Origin: Bacteroidia bacterium
GTDB taxonomy: Bacteria; Bacteroidota; Bacteroidia; UBA8524
Length of the DNA: 64,000 nucleotides
Assembly (NCBI GenBank): GCA_035906255.1
Contig: JAMIFM010000011.1
Span: 39,607 to 103,606, forward strand
Direction of reading: 5' to 3'
Both the position numbers and the translations under genes were made by a program. The stretch's first letter is position 1, and every line of letters starts with the position of its first letter. The notes beneath the pieces are model-generated. The model worked only from the letters and a program-made list of their open reading frames with translations. It did not search any database and was not told the DNA's origin. Below are positions 1,339 through 51,915 of this stretch, piece by piece.

Positions 1339-1342
1339 ATAC

Positions 1343-1990
1343 TCCATCTGTCCTTCTGAGCGCAGCGAGGAATCTTTATTACAATTGTGTTAACAAAACG
1401 GGATAAGATACTTCCTTCGTCAGCATGACAATACTCCTAAATCCCCTGTGGGGACTTGCTCTTCCCCATGATTACGAGGTCTCCCGAAGCAATCCGTTGA
1501 TATAATAAATACTAAAAAACTGTTGACCATTGACGGTCGACTGTTGACCTGCAAACAGATTACCACGTCATCGTGCCTCCTCCTCGCAATGACGATAGTT
1601 AAGCGAGTGCGGTAAACAACATTTAACTCACCCCAAACAATACACCCTTGCCTGATAATCCAACACTTTCCCTCTCTTTGTAAGAGAGGGGCGAATATCA
1701 GAAAGTCGGCCAAAACAAAAATCGGGGGTGAGTCAAACAGCCCATAAATTCTATTTCGACAAGCTCTGTTCAAGTCCTAAAAGGGAACTTCACCAACGAC
1801 GGGCAAGTGCGGCTGCTATCCTGAGAATGCCGAAGGGTGTAGCTGTTTCCCTCCTTGGGTGGTTAGTGGGCTGGTAAGGAGGGACTAAGGGAGGTGTCAA
1901 ACAGATTGCTTCAAAACCCAAAAGCAGTTTTTCGCAATTACGATAGTTGAGCAAGTGCGGAGCAGTCCTGAGCTTGCCGAAGGGTGTGGC
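1343..1990 (+). repeat. Complete copy of the mosaic intergenic repeat element, modules G-A-B-C-D-E-F, about 650 bp.
   Basis: Shares long near-identical segments with 51325-51915 (same module order), and in reverse complement with 16170-16556, 30456-31290 and 43538-44200. Contains perfect hairpins, for example cccctctctttgtaagagagggg and tccctcctt(N17)aaggaggga. No long ORF. Confidence 0.8.
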
Positions 1991-6917: not shown

Positions 6918-7790
6918 ATGGAAATATTAGTTGAGAGGAAAAGGATTAATGAATTAATAGAAATGATAGGGGCTATGGCAAGTCTTGATTTCTCAAAGCG
7001 GATTGCTACCGAAATTACCGACCAGCCTATTGACGTAATGGCATACGGACTAAATATGCTAAGTGAAGAATTGGAAGCCAATATGGTTAGAAAATCAATG
7101 TTGGAAGAAACCAACCGCAATTTGGAACGGTTTGGTTTTACAGTGGCACATGATATAAAATCACCGCTAAGTTCTGCATATACCTTAACCACACTTATAG
7201 AAGATGAGTTGGAGGGGATTGAAAATCAAACCTTAAAAAACTACATCCAACTGCTTAAGGGAATAAATGAACAAACCCGCGAAATGGTAAATGGTATCTT
7301 GGATTACTCAAGAACCAATTACAACAACATGAAGAAAGAAGATGTAGATTTAAAAAGCCTTCTGGGTCAAATAAAACAAGAATACAGCGTTAACGAATCT
7401 ATACATATCACGTTTTCTGATAACCTGCCGATAGTAAATTATAACGCCTTTGCATTGAAACAGATTTTGGGTAACCTTATAAACAATGCTGTGAAACATA
7501 ACGATAAACCTCAATGTAAACTTGAAATACAACATATTGATAGGGAAACTTTTTATGAAATCTCCGTTACCGATAACGGACCGGGTATTTCTATAACTGA
7601 TAAAGAAAAGGTGTTTGATTTGTTTGAAAACCTTAGGAGTGATAAAGAAAACAGTCATGGTGTAGGCCTATCAATAGTAAAAAAATTGGTTACTCAGGCC
7701 AATGGCTCAGTATGGGTGGATACCAATAATAAAAGTGGGGCAAAATTTGTATTCACCATTGATAAACCTTCTGTTGCCATTGGTGTTTAA
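6918..7790 (+). CDS. Cytoplasmic sensor histidine kinase (HisKA + HATPase_c) with no TM or obvious sensor domain.
   Basis: H-box at VAHDIKSPL. N box (NLINNAVKHN), G1 (VTDNGPGI) and G2 (GVGLSIVKKL) are present. N-terminal ~60 aa are coiled-coil. No hydrophobic segments. Confidence 0.85.
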   Translation: MEILVERKRINELIEMIGAMASLDFSKRIATEITDQPIDVMAYGLNMLSEELEANMVRKSMLEETNRNLERFGFTVAHDIKSPLSSAYTLTTLIEDELEGIENQTLKNYIQLLKGINEQTREMVNGILDYSRTNYNNMKKEDVDLKSLLGQIKQEYSVNESIHITFSDNLPIVNYNAFALKQILGNLINNAVKHNDKPQCKLEIQHIDRETFYEISVTDNGPGISITDKEKVFDLFENLRSDKENSHGVGLSIVKKLVTQANGSVWVDTNNKSGAKFVFTIDKPSVAIGV

Positions 7791-16169: not shown

Positions 16170-16556
16170 TGTATGTAAGCCCCCCCTCTCCTAAGAGAAA
16201 CACAAAGGGTATATTATGCCAACCGCACCCTTCTGCAAGCTCAGGAGAACTGCCCCGCACTTGCTCAACTATCGTCATTGCGAGGAGGCCGTCTTCGGCT
16301 GACGTGGCAATCTGTTTGCAGCCCACCGTCAATGGTCAACAGTTTTTTAGTATTTAGATTTTAGTGTTTATACCAACGGATTGCTTCGGGAAGACCCTCG
16401 CAATGACGGGGAAGAGCAAGTCCCCACAGGGGATTTAGGGGTATTGTCATGCTGACGTAGGAAGCATTTTTGCGCAACGGGGTAACACAATTGTTATAAG
16501 GTTCTTCGCTGCGCTCAGAAGGACAGTATGGGTTCTTCGGCAAGTTCAGAATACAA
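16170..16556 (-). repeat. Partial mosaic repeat in reverse orientation (F', B', A', G' modules; C, D and E absent).
   Basis: Reverse complement of the segments in 1343-1990, for example caacggattgcttcgggaagaccctcgcaatgacggggaagagcaagtccccacaggggatttagg. Overlaps the spurious ORFs 16127-16357, 16144-16332 and 16361-16543. Confidence 0.75.
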
Positions 16557-30352: not shown

Positions 30353-30455
30353 GGGTCAGTAAAAATAAGGCTTTTACCTATAAGACAGTTAATACGCTCA
30401 AAAAGCTGTACCCGTTTTATTTTTTTACAATCGATTACCAAACCGCCCTTCTTAT

Positions 30456-31290
30456 CGCACCCTTCGACAAACTCTATCCTTAAACAGGCTCAGGATGGCA
30501 GCCGCACTGCTACGTTGTTGGTGGAGTTCCCTTTAGGGATTGAACAGAGCTTGTTGAAATAGAATTTAGGGGCTGTTTGACTCACCCCTGATTTTTGTTT
30601 TGGTCGATTTTCTGATATTCGCCCCTCTCTTACAAAGAGAGGGGAAGTGTTGGGTTATCAGACAAGGTTGATATGTTTTGGGTGAGTTAAATGTTTGTCT
30701 GCCGCACTCGCACAACTATCGTAATTGCGAAAAACCGCTTTTGGGTTTTGAAGCAATCCGTTTGACACCTCCCTTAGTCCCTCCTTACCAGCCCACTAAC
30801 CATCCAAGGAGGGAAACAGCCGCACCCTTCGGCATTCTAAGGATGGCAGCCGCACTGGTACGTTGTTGGTGAAGTTCCCTTTAGGGCTTGAACAGAGCTT
30901 GTCGAAGTATAATTTAGGGACTGTTTGACTCACCCCTGATTTTTGTTTTGGTCGACTTTCTAATATTCGCCCCTCTCGTACAAAGAGAGGGGCGAATATC
31001 AGGCAAGGTTGAGCTGTTTTGGGTGAGTTAAATGTTTGTCTGCCATACTTGCTTCACTATCGTCATTGCGAGGAAGCCTTCTTCGGCTGACGTGGTAATC
31101 TGTTTGCAGGTCAACAGTCCACCGTCAATGGTCAACAGTTTTTTAGTATTTAGATTTTAGTGTTTATACCAACGGATTGCTTCGGAAGACCTCGCAATGA
31201 CGGGGAAGAGCAAGTCCCCACAGGGGGATTTAGGAGTATTGTCATGCTGACGTAGGAAGCAGCTTATCCCGTTTTGATAACACAATTTAA
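30456..31290 (-). repeat. Extended mosaic-repeat array (about 835 bp) in reverse orientation, with a local tandem duplication of the D'-C' modules.
   Basis: 30480-30660 and 30830-31010 are near-identical (caggatggcagccgcactg...ttccctttaggg...tgactcacccctgatttttgttttggtcga...cccctctc(g/t)tacaaagagagggg). They are followed by B', A' and G' fragments. Overlaps the spurious ORFs 30678-30872 and 30344-30562. Confidence 0.8.
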
Positions 31291-32005: not shown

Positions 32006-33244
32006 TTGAACTTTAAAGATACTTTAAATCTCTCGCTTGACTCGATAAAGATAAACAAGCTGCGCACCGTAATTACCGCACTTATTATTGCTATCGGTAT
32101 TATGGCCTTAGTGGGTATTTTATCTTCTATTGATGCCATGAAGGTGTACTTAACCAAAAGTTTCTCAGAAATGGGGGCTAATACCTTTAGCATCAAAAAC
32201 AGGGGCGGTAACTTTAAAATGGGTGGCCCCGGCAAGCGTATCAATTACCGCAAAATATCGTATGAAGAAGCCGTTGATTTCAGGCAGGCTTATAACTTCC
32301 CTTCGGCCATCGTTTCAGCATCTGTAAACGTATCGTTTGCCAGCACGGCCAAATACCAATCACGTAAAACCAATCCAAACACATTGGTTTTGGGGGTTGA
32401 TGAAAACTACTTAACTGTATCAGGCTACAAAATTTCAAAAGGCCGTAATATTACTATCGGCGATATGGAAGCCATGACCCCTGTGGCTATTATAGGCACT
32501 GATATTGTGAGCAAACTGTTTCCCAACAAAGAAAACCCTATTGATAAAGAAATATCAGTGGGCGGGGTGAAAATGCGGGTAATTGGGGTGCTTGAATCAA
32601 AAGGAAACTCAGTAGGATTTGGCGGTGGAGATAAGCTTATTTATGTGCCGCTTACATTTGCCAAATTTAGGCTGATGAATATGCCTCCCTCTTATGCCCT
32701 TTCGGTAATGGTGAACGACCCTACTATGATTGACCCTGCTATGTCTGAAGCCGAAGGTGTTTTTCGTAAAGTGCGGAAGGTAAATGCCTTTGATGATAAT
32801 AATTTCCAGTTGACGAAAAGCGACGGCTTGGCACAAGAGTTTATTCAAAACCTTAGTATGCTCACCTTTGCAGCTACTATTATTGGGGCAATTACCATTT
32901 TTGGAGCGGCCATCGGTTTAATGAATATTATGCTGGTTACAGTTACCGAGCGTACCCGCGAAATTGGCATCCGCAAATCATTAGGAGCTACCCCTGCTAT
33001 CATCCGCAAGCAATTCTTATACGAAGCCGTAACCATTTGTCAATTGGGCGGTGCAGGCGGTATTGTTTTGGGTATTTTAATAGGCAATATTATTTCGGGA
33101 GCACTGGGCGTAGGGTTTATTATGCCTTGGGCACCCATTGTGATTGCTTTAATACTTTGCACATTGGTTGGACTGGCTGCGGGCTACTACCCTGCCCAAA
33201 AAGCTGCTAAACTCGACCCTATTGAAGCTCTTAGGTTTGAATAA
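32006..33244 (+). CDS. ABC transporter permease, FtsX/MacB-like family (permease only, no adjacent ATPase).
   Basis: N-terminal TM, large periplasmic domain, then the C-terminal 3-TM FtsX bundle (RTREIGIRKSLGA motif). 412 aa. Confidence 0.8.
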   Translation: MNFKDTLNLSLDSIKINKLRTVITALIIAIGIMALVGILSSIDAMKVYLTKSFSEMGANTFSIKNRGGNFKMGGPGKRINYRKISYEEAVDFRQAYNFPSAIVSASVNVSFASTAKYQSRKTNPNTLVLGVDENYLTVSGYKISKGRNITIGDMEAMTPVAIIGTDIVSKLFPNKENPIDKEISVGGVKMRVIGVLESKGNSVGFGGGDKLIYVPLTFAKFRLMNMPPSYALSVMVNDPTMIDPAMSEAEGVFRKVRKVNAFDDNNFQLTKSDGLAQEFIQNLSMLTFAATIIGAITIFGAAIGLMNIMLVTVTERTREIGIRKSLGATPAIIRKQFLYEAVTICQLGGAGGIVLGILIGNIISGALGVGFIMPWAPIVIALILCTLVGLAAGYYPAQKAAKLDPIEALRFE

Positions 33245-33298
33245 CCGCTCAGCTACGCCACCTCTTTACTTTTTGATTTTTAATCACTTATTAGTTAA

Positions 33299-33460
33299 CA
33301 TCAGCATGACAATACCCCTAAATCCCCTGTGGGGACTTTACCAACGACGGGCAAGTGCGGCTGTTTCCCTCCTTGGGTGGTTAGTGGGCTGGTAAGGAGG
33401 GACTAAGGGAGGTGTCAAACGGATTGCTTCAAAACCCAAAAGCGGTTTTTCGCAATGACG
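33299..33460 (+). repeat. Short mosaic repeat copy (A fragment plus E module).
   Basis: tcagcatgacaatacccctaaatcccctgtgggg followed by ...ggctgtttccctccttgggtggttagtgggctggtaaggagggactaagggaggtgtcaaacggattgcttcaaaacccaaaagcggtttttcgcaatgacg. Overlaps the spurious ORF 33168-33395. Confidence 0.75.
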
Positions 33461-33618
33461 AAAATCGAAACACAAGCTCAAATCGAACATCGTTAAATCC
33501 TGAGATTATTTTATTTCCAAAGAAAATTGGCCTTCGAAGTACCGGCTAACTAAAACTAATCCCACTTCTTCAATAAGGAAAATCAAAATAACTTTTAAGT
33601 GTTTCAAATAATTTATAA

Positions 33619-34551
33619 TTGCAACCCAGGAGTTGCACTATGACACCAATATTTGAAGAATTTACCAAAAGTTATTTAATAGCGAAAAAAGAATCGTTTG
33701 CAAACAATGAAACTGCTAATTTATTTAGACACAAATTACCTCAACAAGTAAATCAATTAATCAATAGCAACAGTAGATACAAAATTGCTGGTTCAGTCGG
33801 AAAAGGTAATTGGGCAGACTGCCCTTGGATTGCAATTCTAGATTTGCTAATAACTGATAGCCCACAGTCAGGATATTATCCAGTATTCCTATTTCAGGCA
33901 GACATGAAGGGATTTTATTTATCTTTAAATCAAGGCGTCACTGAAATTAGAAATTACTACAAACACAACACAAAAGAGGTTTTATCTGTAAGAGCTACGG
34001 ATTTTAGGGCTAAAGTTAGTACTGATAATTCTCTTTTGAAGAAAATTGAACTTAACTCTAAAACTGAAAATGCAAAACTATATGAAGCAGGGAATATTTT
34101 TGCCAAATATTATAGCTCAAGTGAGCTCCCTGACAATAAAACCCTTTCCAATGACATACTTTATTTCTTAAACCTATACGATGAACTAATCAATAATGAT
34201 CAAAATATAAATGAAAACGACGAATTAACGGCTTATGAAAGTAAGAAACGTAAATTGCACTATCGGGTTGAAAGAAATAGATATATTTCTTTAAAAGTAA
34301 AAAAGAGAAAGGGATATACCTGTGAAGTTTGTGATTTCAACTTTACAACTAAATATGGTGCTTTAGGTAAAGACTTTATTGAAACTCATCATCTAATACC
34401 TATTTCAACACTAGAACTAGGGAAGTTCAAAGTTAATTTAGCTGATGATTTTGCTGTTTTATGTAGCAACTGTCATCGCATGATTCATAGACTACAAGAT
34501 ACAAGTAATATTAAAGCATTAAGGGCCATAGTTAAAAACAATAGAAAATAA
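33619..34551 (+). CDS. MrcB-N (DUF3578)-HNH nuclease, a type IV (modification-dependent) restriction-like protein.
   Basis: The N-terminal region has the DUF3578/MrcB_N hallmark KIAGSVGKGNWADCPWIAILD. The C-terminus is HNH (CEVCDF...ETHHLIPIS...CSNCHRMIH). The gene is visibly AT-richer than its neighbours. The true start is probably the Met at 33640. Confidence 0.65.
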   Translation: MQPRSCTMTPIFEEFTKSYLIAKKESFANNETANLFRHKLPQQVNQLINSNSRYKIAGSVGKGNWADCPWIAILDLLITDSPQSGYYPVFLFQADMKGFYLSLNQGVTEIRNYYKHNTKEVLSVRATDFRAKVSTDNSLLKKIELNSKTENAKLYEAGNIFAKYYSSSELPDNKTLSNDILYFLNLYDELINNDQNINENDELTAYESKKRKLHYRVERNRYISLKVKKRKGYTCEVCDFNFTTKYGALGKDFIETHHLIPISTLELGKFKVNLADDFAVLCSNCHRMIHRLQDTSNIKALRAIVKNNRK

Positions 34552-34935
34552 CTACCCCGCCAACTCCTCAAACAATTGATTAAGTTTCTTTTCAGGGTTG
34601 GTGCAAAGGCCGGGGTGCACTTTTGAAGTTTGCAATACCGTGCTGCGGTTGGCTGTGAGCCAACGGAACCGTGAGGGTAAATCCAGCTGGGCAATGGGGC
34701 CGCCATCTGCATCGCCGCGACAAACCTTCTCAAATCCTTGTAAATAATTTTCTACTTCCGTAGGTTCAATAACAGGGCAAAAAGCCTTTAAACGGTCGGC
34801 ATCCAGTACATAACGCATTTGTAAAAACTTATGCTTTTTGCAAAACAATATTACCCCCACATTAATAAACTCTTCGCGCTCCACACGGGGCACAATGCGT
34901 ATCACCGCATACTCAAACAAGTGGTTATCTTGCAT
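34552..34935 (-). CDS. DUF3037 domain protein.
   Basis: 127 aa. Conserved N-terminal block FEYAVIRIVPRVEREEFINVGVILF is typical of DUF3037 (recollection). Overlaps the upstream kinase gene by 11 nt. Confidence 0.55.
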   Translation of the reverse strand: MQDNHLFEYAVIRIVPRVEREEFINVGVILFCKKHKFLQMRYVLDADRLKAFCPVIEPTEVENYLQGFEKVCRGDADGGPIAQLDLPSRFRWLTANRSTVLQTSKVHPGLCTNPEKKLNQLFEELAG

Positions 34936-35755
34936 TTTCTGCCTCCTTCACAAAAATATCCGATGCCTGCAAACGTGCGGTTAAAAAACCGTTATATACC
35001 TCACGGCGGCTTTCGGCCGTTTCGTCAATAGTGTTTTCAAGCAACCACTCATCGGGTACTTGTGCCACAATTCCCCTGATGATTTCAGGGGTAAGTATCC
35101 GCCTAAACTCATCATTCACACTTTCAAGTTCAGTCGCTCGGCGCAACAACACATGGTCTTTCACTTGCACAAACGGTTTTTTAGCTTGCTCCTCCCAATT
35201 GTCCCACGAGTGGTGAAAATACAGCGATGCACCGTGGTCTATCAACCACAACTCTTTATGCCACCATAGCATATTGGTATTGCGAGCCGTGCGGTCAACA
35301 TTCGTAAGCAAACTATCCAACCACACAATTTTAGAAGACAATAACGGGTCTATCAGCGTTACCGCAGGGTCGTAGGTCATACTTCCTTGCAGGTAATGTA
35401 CGCCCAAATTCAACCCCTCACTTTTGCGCAGCAATTCTTGTATTTCCTCATCGCCTTCGGTGCGACCAAAATCCGCATCCAAATGGGCAAATACCATTTC
35501 GGGTACTTTAAAACCTAACACTCGGGCAATTTCTCCGCCTATAAAATCAGCAATCAACGATTTCACCCCCTGCCCTGCCCCTCTAAACTTAAGCACATAC
35601 AAAAAATCATCATCAGCCTCGGCAATGGCAGGCAAAGAACCGCCTTCGCGAAGCGGGGTAACGTACCGCACAACATTTACATGGCGGGGAGATGTAAGCA
35701 CTTTTGTCATCACAATAAATTTTTCATCTACAGCGTACTGTGTATGATAAGGCAA
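34925..35755 (-). CDS. HipA-like / PI3-4-kinase-superfamily atypical kinase.
   Basis: Catalytic-loop-like TNVDRTARNTN and IDHG (DFG-like) motifs spaced as in HipA/PI3K-fold kinases. 276 aa. Glycine-rich loop LKFRGAGQG. Confidence 0.5.
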   Translation of the reverse strand: MPYHTQYAVDEKFIVMTKVLTSPRHVNVVRYVTPLREGGSLPAIAEADDDFLYVLKFRGAGQGVKSLIADFIGGEIARVLGFKVPEMVFAHLDADFGRTEGDEEIQELLRKSEGLNLGVHYLQGSMTYDPAVTLIDPLLSSKIVWLDSLLTNVDRTARNTNMLWWHKELWLIDHGASLYFHHSWDNWEEQAKKPFVQVKDHVLLRRATELESVNDEFRRILTPEIIRGIVAQVPDEWLLENTIDETAESRREVYNGFLTARLQASDIFVKEAENAR

Positions 35756-36947: not shown

Positions 36948-37100
36948 GTCAGTATGTTCAACCTTTTGTTCCCCTGTCATTCCGAGACGCAGCGAGGAAA
37001 CTTATTGCACGCGTGTTAACAAAACGCGATAAGTTGCTTCCTACGTCAGCATGACACGGCTATACGTCATTCCGAGGGTCTCTCCGAAGCAATCACACAT
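36948..37100 (+). repeat. Short mosaic repeat (G module plus degenerate A fragments).
   Basis: cctgtcattccgagacgcagcgaggaaacttattgcacgcgtgttaacaaaacgcgataagttgcttcctacgtcagcatgaca...cgtcattccgagggtctctccgaagcaatc matches the G/A modules of 1343-1440. Confidence 0.6.
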
Positions 37101-43521: not shown

Positions 43522-43537
43522 TACTTCCTAAGCCTAC

Positions 43538-44200
43538 TAAAGGGTGCGGCGGTGGTTGGTAAGGAGTGATTAAATTATATTAACAAACGGGATAAGATGC
43601 TTCCTACGTCAGCATGACAATACTCCTAAATCCCCTGTGGGGACTTTACCAACGACGGGCAAGCGCGGCTGCCCTCCTGAGAATGCCGAAGGGTGCGGCT
43701 GTTTCCCTCCTTGGGTGGTTAGTGGGCTGGTAAGGAGGGACTAAGGGAGGTGTCAAACGGATTGCTTCAAAACCCGAAGATGGTTTTTCGCAATGACGAT
43801 AGTTGAGCGAGTGCGGCAGACAACATTTAACTCACCCAAAACAGCTTAACCTTGTCTGATAACCCAACACTTCCCCTCTCTTTGTAAGAGAGGGGCGAAT
43901 ATCAGAAAGTCGGCCAAAACAAAAATCAAGGGTGAGTCAAACAGCCCCTAAATTCTACTTCAACAAGCTCTGTTCAAACCCTAAAGGGAACTTTACCAAC
44001 GACGTACCATGCGGCAGATTTCCTGAGCTTGCCGAAGGATAGTGCCTGCTAAAGGGTGCGGCGGTGGTTGGTAAGGAGTGATTAAATTATATTAACAAAC
44101 GGGATAAGATGCTTCCTACGTCAGCATGACAATACACCTAAATCCCCTGTGGGGACTTGCTCTTCCCCGTTATTGCGAGGCCTATCCGAAGCAATCAGCT
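43538..44200 (+). repeat. Mosaic repeat array (G, A, E, B-end, C, D modules plus a second G-A copy), about 660 bp.
   Basis: The 60-nt block cctactaaagggtgcggcggtggttggtaaggagtgattaaattatattaacaaacgggataagatgcttcctacgtcagcatgacaata occurs twice (43538 and 44052). Internal modules are near-identical to 1343-1990 and 51325-51915. Overlaps the spurious ORF 44126-44365. Confidence 0.8.
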
Positions 44201-44252
44201 TGTGGACTGTTAACTACCTATCGGATTGTTCAAAATCAAAAGATGGTTTTAA

Positions 44253-45548: not shown

Positions 45549-45881
45549 TTGCACATGAACCCATACCCAAGCCCGCAGGCTGCCCTTGATGATTTTAGCA
45601 GGGTGATTGACCAACTTGCTGCCGATTTACAATTGTATGCCGCCCGACAGCAGCCCAACTACACCTACATGGATAAGCAAAATATGCTGATACGCCACCT
45701 TACCGAGATATACAATGGCATTACTACCCTGCAACACTATGATGCTTGGACGGCTGTTGAAACCCGAATGCTAAGCTTTGTGCGGCAAGACGCTAACCTT
45801 TGCGGACACATGATACGCTTGCGCACAAAACCCGAAGGGAATAATTTTTCGCTGATTGGATATGACCCGTTTAACCCCTAA
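45549..45881 (+). CDS. Hypothetical small protein.
   Basis: 110 aa ORF with reasonable codon usage. No motifs. Confidence 0.35.
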   Translation: MHMNPYPSPQAALDDFSRVIDQLAADLQLYAARQQPNYTYMDKQNMLIRHLTEIYNGITTLQHYDAWTAVETRMLSFVRQDANLCGHMIRLRTKPEGNNFSLIGYDPFNP

Positions 45882-45882
45882 C

Positions 45883-45990
45883 TTATACTTCGACAAGTTC
45901 TGTACAAGTCTTAAAGGGAACTTTACGCACTACGAACGAGTGTGGTAGTTTCCTGAGCTTGCCGAAGGGTGCGGAGGAAGGCTTCGGAAA
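45883..45990 (+). repeat. Isolated D-module copy of the mosaic repeat.
   Basis: cttatacttcgacaagttctgtacaagtcttaaagggaactttacgcactacgaacgagtgtggtagtttcctgagcttgccgaagggtgcgg matches the D module (1749-1850, 51668-51760). Confidence 0.7.
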
Positions 45991-48811: not shown

Positions 48812-48835
48812 GCTTATACCTCCCTGTTCTTCTTA

Positions 48836-49030
48836 CCGCACCCTTTAGCAGGCACTATCCTTCGGCATTCTCAGGATGGCAGCCGCGCTTGCCCGTCGTT
48901 GGTAAAGTCCCCACAGGGGATTTAGGGGTATTGTCATGCTGAGCGATAGCGAAGCACCTTATCCCGCTTTGTGAACACAGTTGTTATAAGGTTCTTCGCT
49001 GCGCTTAGAAGGACAGAGAGGGGCGAAGTT
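48836..49030 (-). repeat. Mosaic repeat in reverse orientation (D'-end, A', G').
   Basis: cagcaggcactatccttcggcattctcaggatggcagccgcgcttgcccgtcgttggtaaagtccccacaggggatttaggggtattgtcatgctga...gttcttcgctgcgcttagaaggacag. Confidence 0.75.
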
Positions 49031-51279: not shown

Positions 51280-51324
51280 TTTTAGAGTTTATTATTTAGA
51301 GTTTAGTTACCTGTACCGCTCCTC

Positions 51325-51915
51325 TGTCAGCATGACAATACCTCTAAATCCCCTGTGGGGACTTGCTCTTCCTCGTCATTGCGAGGTCTTCCGAAGCAAT
51401 CCGTTGGCATAAACACTAAAATCTAAATACTAAAAAACTGTTGACCATTGACGGTCGACTGCTGACCTGCGAGCAGATTGCCACGTCAGCCGAAGACGGC
51501 CTCCTCGCAATGACGATAGTTGAGCGAGTGCGGCAGACAACATTTAACTCACCCAAAACATCCCAACCTTGCTTGATAACCCAACACTTCCCCTCTCTTT
51601 GTAAGAGAGGGGCGAATGTCAGAAAGTCGACCAAAACAAAAATCAGGGGTGAGTCAAACAGCCTCCCTAAATTCTACTTCGACAAGCTCTGTTCAAGCCC
51701 TAAAGGGAACTTCAACAACGACGTACCAGTACGGCTGCCATCCTGAGAATGCCGAAGGGTGCGGCTGTTTCCCTCCTTGGGTGGTTAGTGGGCTGGTAAG
51801 GAGGGACTAAGGGAGGTGCCAAACGGATTGCTTCAAAACCCAAAAGCGGTTTTTCGCAATGACGATAGTTGAGCAAGTGCAACAGCCATCTTGAGCCTGC
51901 CGAAGGGTGCGGTTG
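51325..51915 (+). repeat. Second complete mosaic repeat copy (A-B-C-D-E-F), about 590 bp.
   Basis: Collinear and highly similar to 1400-1990. Overlaps the spurious ORFs 51416-51634, 51441-51746 and 51616-51810. Confidence 0.85.

What the first reader, a model, noticed from the sequence alone, without database searches (positions are those of the whole stretch)
33619..34551. Low-GC MrcB-N(DUF3578)-HNH nuclease gene preceded by a repeat element: probable horizontally acquired type IV restriction-like defense gene
The protein combines the MrcB N-terminal DNA-recognition domain, with its hallmark KIAGSVGKGNWADCPWIAILD, and a C-terminal HNH nuclease (CxxC...HH...CxxCH). This architecture is associated with modification-dependent restriction. 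The gene is visibly AT-richer than the flanking ABC-permease and kinase genes. It sits right after mosaic repeat copy 33299-33460. A 6-bp inverted repeat TTGCAAC-ccagga-GTTGCAC overlaps the first annotated Met; the likely true start is 33640.
Basis: partly seen in the sequence, partly recalled or inferred. Interest (0 to 1): 0.6.

Follow-up and report, generated by a model that had tools for sequence, protein, structure and literature searches.

The report
Solitary methyl-DNA-sensing HNH restriction gene
This is an intact, foreign-looking gene for a one-protein restriction enzyme, joining a modified-cytosine reader of the McrB type to an HNH DNA cutter; it sits in a genome slot where related bacteria carry other anti-phage genes, and it is an ordinary member of a large, already annotated but biochemically untested family.

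Summary
The ORF 33640-34551 (+) encodes 303 aa with a MrcB_N/DUF3578 domain (Pfam E 4.9e-53) and a C-terminal HNH domain (E 3.4e-5, above the Pfam cut-off). The AlphaFold model of the N-domain matches EcoKMcrB-N structures. The McrB residues that clamp the phosphates and contact the 5-methyl group (S38, W49, Y64, L68) are invariant or conservatively kept. The Cys4-zinc and His/Asn/His nuclease residues are invariant.

The gene is the strongest compositional outlier in the window (GC 0.31, GC3 0.23, against 0.42 and 0.41). Homology to relatives stops at 33250 and at 34551, and none of the eight related contigs examined carries the gene. The position next to DUF3037 instead holds a SIR2 gene, an NB-ARC/TPR gene, small unknown ORFs or a repeat, all but the repeat AT-richer than their flanks.

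The family is large: at least 558 loci in species-representative genomes, across many phyla. It has no conserved partner gene and is AT-richer than its host in 55 of 61 loci.

Best reading: a horizontally acquired, NTP-independent, probably dimeric Type IV (modification-dependent) endonuclease. It is a new member of a known kind. No biochemical study of this architecture was found in the searched library.

The parts
33640..34551 (+). Coding sequence of the 303-aa MrcB_N-HNH protein, stop codon included. The alternative TTG at 33619 is unlikely to be the start.
   Evidence: ORF list. Homologues align from M1 and the database call is 303 aa. Pfam hits.
33664..34191 (+). MrcB_N / DUF3578 ('ADAM') domain, aa 9-184: the predicted base-flipping sensor of modified cytosine.
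   Evidence: PF12102 E 4.9e-53. Foldseek to 6gce/3ssc, E 2e-5, TM 0.64-0.65 on the target. hhalign probability 92.5%. S52, W63 and Y80 are invariant and L84 is L or I; they correspond to McrB S38, W49, Y64 and L68.
34207..34236 (+). Flexible linker between the two domains (aa 190-199).
   Evidence: pLDDT below 50 in the AlphaFold model.
34321..34491 (+). HNH (beta-beta-alpha-metal) nuclease core with a Cys4 zinc site, aa 228-284.
   Evidence: PF01844, 24.4 bits against a cut-off of 21.4. The only solved relative by sequence is the EcoKMcrA HNH domain, E 1e-4. C228, C231, H250, H251, D270, C275, C278, H279 and H283 are invariant; N277 is kept in 62 of 64.
33586..33677 (+). Predicted mRNA hairpin enclosing an SD-like AGGAG (33628-33632) and the ATG.
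   Evidence: dG -21.2 kcal/mol, z -3.25, 0 of 200 shuffles as stable. Not conserved in 35 homologous loci, mean z +0.19.
33251..34550 (.). Segment with no counterpart in relatives: repeat copy, AT-rich leader and the gene.
   Evidence: Homology of L002-L005 ends at 33246-33250. Homology of L090-L093 ends at 34551-34553. tblastn of the protein against all eight contigs gives no hit.
33298..33476 (.). Copy of the genome's mosaic intergenic repeat, upstream of the gene.
   Evidence: the repeat finder families D1, I9 and I20. No Rfam family. No significant overall fold.
34552..35755 (-). Native flank: DUF3037 (34552-34935) and a HipA_2 kinase (34925-35755). This conserved pair borders the variable slot.
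   Evidence: Pfam E 1.5e-48 and 1.6e-17. PADLOC candidates PDC-M66B and PDC-M66A. The pair is conserved in L090-L095.
32006..33244 (+). Native flank: MacB/FtsX-type ABC permease.
   Evidence: PF12704 and PF02687 on homologue P0123. 83% nucleotide identity to L002-L005.

Best explanation
The gene encodes a self-contained, NTP-independent Type IV (modification-dependent) restriction endonuclease.

Proposed mechanism. The N-terminal McrB-N-type domain approaches DNA and flips a cytosine into a pocket. Conserved Tyr and Leu residues in that pocket favour a 5-substituted (or N4-methylated) cytosine. A flexible linker tethers an McrA-type zinc-stabilised HNH domain. By analogy with EcoKMcrA and TagI, this domain probably dimerises to form one cleavage channel and cuts both strands near the modified site.

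Biological role. The host, which presumably lacks the targeted methylation, is spared. Phage or plasmid DNA carrying that modification is cut.

Origin. The gene arrived by horizontal transfer into a variable slot beside the conserved HipA_2-DUF3037 pair. That slot holds different defence-type genes in related bacteria.

What is shown and what is inferred. Shown: the domain identities, the conserved functional residues, the foreign composition, the absence from relatives, and the lack of a conserved partner gene. Inferred: base flipping, the nature of the modification, dimerisation, cleavage and phage defence.
For: Domains: PF12102 E 4.9e-53 and PF01844 above its cut-off.

Structure: the AlphaFold model has pLDDT 85.5. 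Its N-domain matches 20 EcoKMcrB-N chains (11 PDB entries) at probability 1.00 and TM 0.55-0.65 on the target. hhalign against EcoKMcrB residues 1-161 gives probability 92.5% and E 5e-7.

Sensor residues: the residues that PMC3424535 identifies as the phosphate clamp and the methyl contacts (S38, W49, Y64, L68) correspond to S52, W63, Y80 and L84. These are invariant, or L/I, in 64 homologues.

Nuclease residues: the HNH catalytic and zinc ligands are invariant. The closest solved relative is the EcoKMcrA HNH domain, which dimerises through that domain (PMC6182155).

No partner gene: 150 neighbouring ORFs from 38 homologous loci hit 142 different Pfam families, none more than 3 times. There is no conserved methyltransferase, GTPase or McrC.

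Foreign origin: GC3 is 0.234 against 0.408. Homology to relatives breaks at both borders and the gene is absent from eight related contigs. The same slot holds SIR2 (PADLOC E 1.5e-54), NB-ARC/TPR, a weakly PDC-S54-like ORF or small AT-rich ORFs in relatives. The family is AT-richer than its flanks in 55 of 61 loci.
Against: No experiment on any DUF3578-HNH protein was found in the searched library.

The correspondence of the base-stacking residue (McrB Y117 to Y158) rests only on an insignificant alignment stretch. The residue equivalent to the intercalating Y41 is Lys, so the sequence context, and possibly the substrate, may differ from EcoKMcrB.

PADLOC's Type IV model matches only the HNH part, at 24 bits.

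No promoter was identified: there are no sigma-70-like sites on the + strand and no Bacteroidetes-type TAnnTTTG in the leader. Expression is therefore not shown.

The closest relative contig (L090) ends 159 bp beyond the junction. Absence of the gene further along that genome cannot be excluded.

Both flanks are never seen together on one relative contig, so a clean empty site is not available.
Confidence: 0.75

Rival explanations
1. The protein is an HNH nuclease whose N-domain binds something other than methylated cytosine, such as unmodified DNA, a damaged base or a hypermodified phage base. It would then act as a toxin, an abortive-infection effector or a repair enzyme rather than a classical 5mC-dependent restriction enzyme.
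For: EcoKMcrB-N also flips unmethylated cytosine (PMC3424535). The hydrogen-bonding residues of the pocket are not conserved among McrB-N homologues. The finger-loop residue is Lys, Gln or Gly instead of Tyr. No biochemistry exists for this architecture in the searched library.
Against: [quoted passage not shown] An orphan nuclease acting on unmodified DNA without an antidote gene would be lethal, and no conserved neighbour exists.
Confidence: 0.12
2. The gene is native, not acquired. Its AT-richness reflects its Lys-, Asn- and Ile-rich protein or selection on the gene, and relatives have lost it.
For: The family is AT-richer than its flanks in almost all hosts, which could reflect a family-intrinsic bias. 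Synteny around the locus is rearranged in relatives anyway.
Against: GC3, which is least tied to amino-acid composition, is 3.5 sd below the window mean. The nearest homologue is only 61% identical and homologues are scattered over many phyla. Different AT-rich cargo genes occupy the same slot in five relative lineages. The homology break falls exactly at the stop codon.
Confidence: 0.06
3. The gene is an inactive or decaying remnant with no present function.
For: No promoter was recognised. A stable hairpin covers the ribosome-binding region.
Against: The full-length ORF is intact, with every invariant catalytic, zinc and pocket residue of the family in place. An identical copy occurs in an independent metagenome (L001).
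Confidence: 0.05

Closest known systems
EcoKMcrB N-terminal domain (McrB-N, DUF3578/ADAM; PDB 3SSC) of the McrBC Type IV system
   Same: Same Pfam family, same fold, and the same phosphate-clamp and methyl-contact residues (S38, W49, Y64, L68). The expected mode of action, flipping the modified cytosine out through the minor groove, is also the same.
   Different: There is no AAA+ GTPase domain and no McrC partner. The nuclease is fused directly and belongs to a different superfamily (HNH, not PD-(D/E)xK). The intercalating Y41 is replaced by Lys. Sequence identity is only about 16-23%.
EcoKMcrA (PDB 6GHC)
   Same: Same overall logic: an N-terminal modification reader plus a C-terminal Cys4-zinc HNH domain in one polypeptide of about 280-300 aa. 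Its HNH domain is the closest solved relative by sequence.
   Different: The reader domain is unrelated. McrA uses its own NEco domain, which, according to the literature read here, does not flip the base.
SRA-HNH (TagI, ScoA3IV) and EVE-HNH (VcaM4I) modification-dependent endonucleases
   Same: A two-domain base-flipping sensor plus HNH, NTP-independent, and standalone genes.
   Different: Their sensors belong to the PUA/SRA superfamily, a different fold from McrB-N. Those enzymes have been characterised biochemically; this architecture has not, in the library searched.

Membership tests
MrcB_N / DUF3578 / ADAM domain family (PF12102) | Profile match above the curated threshold | tested here: met
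   179.9 bits against a cut-off of 25, covering 180 of 183 profile positions.
MrcB_N / DUF3578 / ADAM domain family (PF12102) | McrB-N fold | tested here: met
   The AlphaFold model against 6gce/3ssc: probability 1.00, E 2e-5, TM 0.64-0.65 normalised to the target.
MrcB_N / DUF3578 / ADAM domain family (PF12102) | Conserved pocket and clamp residues (S38, W49, Y64, L68 of EcoKMcrB) | tested here: met
   S52, W63 and Y80 are invariant and L84 is L or I in 64 homologues. The correspondence comes from phmmer and hhalign, and the residue roles from PMC3424535.
MrcB_N / DUF3578 / ADAM domain family (PF12102) | Base-stacking Tyr (Y117) | tested here: inconclusive
   Y158 is kept in 62 of 64 homologues. 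It aligns to Y117 only in an insignificant phmmer stretch, and hhalign stops at McrB residue 115.
MrcB_N / DUF3578 / ADAM domain family (PF12102) | Preferential binding of 5mC/5hmC/4mC DNA by base flipping | not testable with these tools
   Needs binding assays (EMSA) or a co-crystal structure.
HNH (beta-beta-alpha-metal) nucleases (PF01844) | Profile match above threshold, with the catalytic His, the Asn, the metal-binding His and the Cys4 zinc site | tested here: met
   24.4 bits against a cut-off of 21.4. H250 and H251 align to the HH of EcoKMcrA; counting from the 10-residue tag of the crystallised construct (my count, not a tool result), the first corresponds to H228, the residue mutated to Ala in that study. 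C228, C231, C275, C278, H279 and H283 are invariant, and N277 is kept in 62 of 64.
HNH (beta-beta-alpha-metal) nucleases (PF01844) | Metal-dependent DNA cleavage | not testable with these tools
   Needs an enzyme assay.
Type IV (modification-dependent) restriction enzymes | A modification-sensing domain coupled to a nuclease, with no cognate protective methyltransferase | tested here: met
   Both domains lie in one ORF. No conserved neighbour is found in 38 homologous loci, and only 2-3 of 150 neighbouring ORFs are methyltransferases. None flanks the gene in the window.
Type IV (modification-dependent) restriction enzymes | Cleavage only of modified DNA, and restriction of modified phage or plasmid | not testable with these tools
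   Needs the experiments listed under next steps.
McrBC system | McrB AAA+ GTPase domain and a McrC (DUF2357 plus PD-(D/E)xK) partner | tested here: not met
   The 303-aa protein has no AAA+ hit. Its neighbours are an ABC permease and DUF3037. It is not a McrBC system; it only shares the reader domain.
EcoKMcrA family | NEco N-terminal reader domain plus HNH | tested here: not met
   Only the HNH part aligns to 6ghc, residues 221-290. The N-domain is MrcB_N. The PADLOC mREase_IV model matches the HNH part only.

The most novel reading that the evidence does not exclude
Two readings go beyond routine annotation and are not excluded by the evidence.

First, the McrB-N-HNH family may be an unstudied class of compact, NTP-independent enzymes that depend on modified cytosine. 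The variable finger-loop residue (Lys here; Gln or Gly elsewhere) would set sequence contexts different from the R-mC of EcoKMcrBC, which could make family members useful epigenetic tool enzymes.

Second, the gene may be the cargo of a lineage-specific defence hotspot. The hotspot would be anchored by the HipA_2-DUF3037 pair, itself a PADLOC defence candidate (PDC-M66). Single-gene systems such as SIR2, an NLR-like gene and this nuclease would be exchanged there, possibly with the help of the mosaic intergenic repeats that mark rearrangement breakpoints in this lineage.
Probability: 0.4. Interest if true: 0.45.

Novelty: new member of a known kind. Interest (0 to 1): 0.3.

Why it matters
On its own the gene is a routine addition to the catalogue of Type IV restriction genes. 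Databases already name it 'DUF3578/MrcB family domain-containing protein' or '5-methylcytosine-specific restriction protein A'.

It has modest value in three respects:
- It is a clean, well-bounded example of a single-gene defence cargo in a variable slot of an uncultured Bacteroidota lineage.
- It points to a large family that was never assayed in the literature I could search, and that could yield small methylation-dependent nucleases with new context specificities. The family has at least 558 loci in species-representative genomes and 290 clusters at E 1e-30 or better.
- It adds circumstantial 'guilt by location' support to the PADLOC candidate PDC-M66 (HipA_2 plus DUF3037) next door.

Tried and rejected
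- **Synteny through the permease.** A genome-contig scan with the permease alone found no relative. Exact look-up of the window's permease found no encoding contig, and its HipA_2 ORF (taken from the TTG start) is not in the protein collection. Contigs of cluster mates had to be used instead.
- **Insertion signatures.** No credible target-site duplication or terminal inverted repeat flanks 33251-34550. The sequence that follows the DUF3037 stop in L090 and L091 (CTTGATTACAGAGTGAGATTCCCG) is absent from the window.
- **The repeat as a structured RNA.** Rfam finds nothing at gathering thresholds. The only sub-threshold hit, IS605-orfB-I at 33461-33636 (-), scores 18.8 bits against a gathering score of 94.2 (E 0.51) and is taken as chance. 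The folding z-scores are +0.41 and -1.46.
- **Promoter.** There are no sigma-70-like sites on the + strand. There is no Bacteroidetes -7 motif TAnnTTTG on the + strand in the leader, and the motif is not enriched in the window.
- **The start-codon hairpin as a family trait.** Rejected: 35 homologous loci have a mean z of +0.19.
- **Conserved partner gene or defence-island association of the family.** Rejected as a rule.
- **Plasmid or phage carriage.** One full-length plasmid hit was found, at 28% identity. No full-length phage hit was found.
- **Link to the neighbouring HipA_2-DUF3037 pair as one system.** Rejected, because the pair is conserved without the gene in L090-L095.
- **Literature on a characterised DUF3578-HNH enzyme.** None was found. 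One preprint (10.1101/2025.04.06.647449) lists 'ADAM/DUF3578' among the sensors of HNH modification-dependent enzymes, but its reference list is not held, so the source could not be traced.

Full report
**What is there**

The + strand carries an ORF from 33619 (TTG) or 33640 (ATG) to 34551. The ATG is the real start. The public gene call for the identical protein is 303 aa. Sixty-four homologues align from residue 1, with Met nearly invariant.

Pfam places a MrcB_N/DUF3578 domain on aa 9-184 (E 4.9e-53). It places an HNH domain on aa 228-284 (E 3.4e-5, 24.4 bits against a cut-off of 21.4). NCBIfam has no model for the protein. PADLOC recognises only the HNH part, through one Type IV model and the ZorE HNH models.

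**Structure and functional residues**

An AlphaFold2 model built on the 64-sequence alignment has mean pLDDT 85.5. The only disordered stretch is aa 190-199, between the two domains.

Foldseek against the PDB returns EcoKMcrB-N in complex with 5mC, 5hmC, 5fC and 4mC DNA as the top 20 chains (11 entries). Probability is 1.00, the best E is 2e-5, and TM is 0.55-0.65 on the target. EcoKMcrA follows weakly.

A profile-to-sequence comparison with E. coli K-12 McrB residues 1-161 gives 92.5% probability and E 5e-7.

According to the crystal-structure paper (PMC3424535):
- S38 and W49 clamp the phosphates of the flipped nucleotide.
- W49, L68 and Y117 form one wall of the pocket, and Y64 forms part of the other.
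- Y64 and L68 contact the 5-methyl group and so discriminate 5mC from C.
- The intercalating Y41 is variable and may tune sequence context.

In this protein the aligned residues are S52, W63, Y80, L84 and K55. In the family S52, W63 and Y80 are invariant and L84 is Leu or Ile. Position 55 varies (Lys 46, Gln 9, Gly 3 and others). Y158 is kept in 62 of 64 homologues and may equal Y117, but that alignment is not significant.

In the nuclease half, C228, C231, C275 and C278 (the zinc site) and H250, H251, D270, H279 and H283 are invariant. N277 is kept in 62 of 64. The only solved relative by sequence is the HNH domain of EcoKMcrA (E 1e-4). EcoKMcrA, like TagI and other two-domain modification-dependent enzymes, dimerises through its nuclease domain. 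The two HNH domains form one DNA channel, with separate reader sites (PMC6182155).

**Composition and origin**

The gene has GC 0.309 and GC3 0.234. The 42 long ORFs of the window average 0.425 (sd 0.032) and 0.408 (sd 0.050), and this gene is the extreme value on both measures.

Contigs from related organisms were found through proteins of the two flanks.

On the left, four contigs keep the 172-aa ORF and the permease at 83-84% nucleotide identity, up to window position 33246-33250. These are one MAG, GCA_008933805.1, and three metagenome contigs. They then continue with other genes. L002 and L003 continue with a 161-aa ORF, a carbonic anhydrase and the window's 44249 region. L004 and L005 continue with the inverted 48807-46012 region.

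On the right, L090 keeps the beta-lactamase-like gene, HipA_2 and DUF3037 at 92% identity, down to position 34551. That is one base past the DUF3037 stop codon. It then continues with mosaic-repeat sequence. L091-L093 (78-79% identity) break at 34551-34553.

A tblastn of the protein against all eight contigs finds nothing. The segment unique to this genome is therefore 33251-34550: the repeat copy, an AT-rich leader and the gene. An identical copy of 33433-34839 occurs in one metagenome (L001).

No target-site duplication or terminal inverted repeats were found.

**The slot is variable**

Immediately beyond the DUF3037 stop, relatives carry:
- a SIR2 gene in L091 (PADLOC E 1.5e-54; GC 0.32 against 0.49 for the flank);
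- a 172-aa ORF with a weak PDC-S54 match in L092 and L093 (GC 0.31 against 0.42-0.43);
- a 701-aa NB-ARC/TPR gene in L094 (GC 0.35 against 0.395);
- three small ORFs in L095, two of them at GC 0.27-0.31;
- a repeat in L090.

In L092 and L095 the far side of the slot is SpoU-MutS.

The conserved HipA_2-DUF3037 pair itself matches the PADLOC candidate system PDC-M66A/B (E 1e-20 and 1e-13). This is the pattern of a defence-gene hotspot, and it supports a defence role for the cargo found here.

**The family**

The first protein search gave 569 relatives. The nearest non-identical one is 61% identical. They are mostly about 300 aa and come from Bacteroidota. Sources name them 'DUF3578/MrcB family domain-containing protein', '5-methylcytosine-specific restriction protein A' or 'putative restriction endonuclease'.

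A scan of species-representative genomes found at least 558 loci. They occur in Bacteroidota, Alpha-, Beta- and Gammaproteobacteria, Cyanobacteria, Planctomycetota, Acidobacteriota, Chloroflexota, spirochaetes and Pelagibacterales.

The exhaustive representative search counts 14,469 hits at E 1e-3 or better and 290 at E 1e-30 or better. The best 150 listed are mostly full-length at 300-330 aa. A few have N-terminal extensions, and some are long McrB-like proteins that share only the reader domain.

The gene is AT-richer than its flanks in 55 of 61 loci, with a median difference of -0.077.

Two ORFs on each side of 38 loci (150 ORFs) hit 142 different Pfam families, none more than three times. 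Only 2-3 are DNA methyltransferases. In Flavobacterium columnare and Taibaiella the gene sits between housekeeping genes. The family is therefore a solitary, single-gene module with no obligatory partner. That is what a modification-dependent enzyme allows and what a Type II-like nuclease would not.

Full-length copies are nearly absent from the plasmid collection and absent from the phage collection.

**Upstream features**

The repeat at 33298-33476 is one member of an abundant mosaic intergenic repeat family. Other clusters lie at 1340-1990, 16250-16530, 30450-31290, 36988-37056, 43530-44210, 45876-45975, 48829-49016 and 51320-51915. It has no Rfam match and no significant fold. The repeats are shared with the relative MAG, and they coincide with the synteny breakpoints. 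They are a property of the genome rather than of the gene.

The hairpin buries an AGGAG (33628-33632) and the ATG. It could limit translation of a potentially toxic nuclease. It is not conserved in 35 homologous loci, so this stays a local curiosity.

No promoter was recognised. Read-through from the permease is possible.

**Literature**

DUF3578 is the EcoKMcrB reader domain (PMC3874153). It was renamed ADAM in a census of McrBC systems (PMC11090510). [quoted passage not shown] The architecture-guided screen of such enzymes covered PUA-type and DUF3427 sensors, not DUF3578 (PMC6765204). I found no biochemical study of a DUF3578-HNH enzyme in the library. This is an absence in that library, not proof of absence.

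**Verdict**

The gene is most likely a horizontally acquired, solitary, NTP-independent Type IV restriction endonuclease. It works like McrB-N for sensing and like McrA or TagI for cutting.

It is not a McrBC system, because it has no GTPase and no McrC. It is not a McrA-family member, because its reader domain is different. It belongs to a large, already annotated family, so it is a new member of a known kind.

The main open points are experimental: which modification it senses, in which sequence context, and where it cuts. Interest is modest.

Noticed in passing
window 1340-1990, 16250-16530, 30450-31290, 33298-33476, 36988-37056, 43530-44210, 45876-45975, 48829-49016, 51320-51915: An abundant family of mosaic, modular intergenic repeats occurs in both orientations and is shared with a relative MAG (L002 855-1080). 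Synteny breakpoints between the window and its relatives (33250, 44249, 48807, about 1970) fall beside these clusters. There is no Rfam family and no significant overall fold.
   Followed up: partly
window 34552-35755 (-): The native DUF3037 and HipA_2 kinase pair matches the PADLOC phage-defence candidate PDC-M66B/A (E 1e-13 and 1e-20). It is conserved with a beta-lactamase-like neighbour in most of the relative contigs that reach that side (L090, L092, L093 by DNA homology, L095; not L094). It borders the variable slot.
   Followed up: partly
L091 936-1574; L092 7988-8506; L094 6426-8531; L095 6390-8007: In relatives, the position directly after the DUF3037 stop holds different cargo that is mostly AT-richer than its flanks: a SIR2 defence-type gene, a weakly PDC-S54-like 172-aa ORF, an NB-ARC/TPR (NLR-like) gene, or small unknown ORFs. 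This suggests a lineage-specific defence hotspot.
   Followed up: partly
window 33586-33677 (+): A predicted mRNA hairpin (dG -21.2 kcal/mol, z -3.25) encloses an SD-like AGGAG and the start codon of the nuclease gene. It is not found around the starts of 35 homologues. A canonical SD is itself unusual for Bacteroidota (from my own knowledge, not tested here).
   Followed up: partly
window 34549-34554: The stop codons of the convergent nuclease gene (TAA, 34549-34551) and DUF3037 (CTA on the + strand, 34552-34554) abut with no spacer and no terminator. The homology break with relatives lies exactly here.
   Followed up: yes
window 6918-7790 (+): A 290-aa histidine kinase (HisKA plus HATPase_c) is the second most AT-rich gene of the window (GC 0.354, GC3 0.333).
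   Followed up: no
L009-L088 (homologous loci): Across phyla, family members are AT-richer than their flanks in 55 of 61 loci (median -0.077), by up to -0.22 in high-GC Pseudomonas and Aeromonadaceae hosts. The exceptions are Pelagibacterales and two Methylobacterium loci.
   Followed up: partly
representative proteins P0253, P0261, P0264, P0281, P0285, P0288, P0298, P0317: Some family members carry an extra 100-190 aa N-terminal extension in front of the MrcB_N-HNH unit (lengths 400-500 aa). The nature of the extension was not examined.
   Followed up: no
window 33461-33636 (-): A sub-threshold Rfam hit to IS605-orfB-I RNA (18.8 bits against a gathering score of 94.2, E 0.51) lies in the AT-rich leader. 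It is taken as chance.
   Followed up: no
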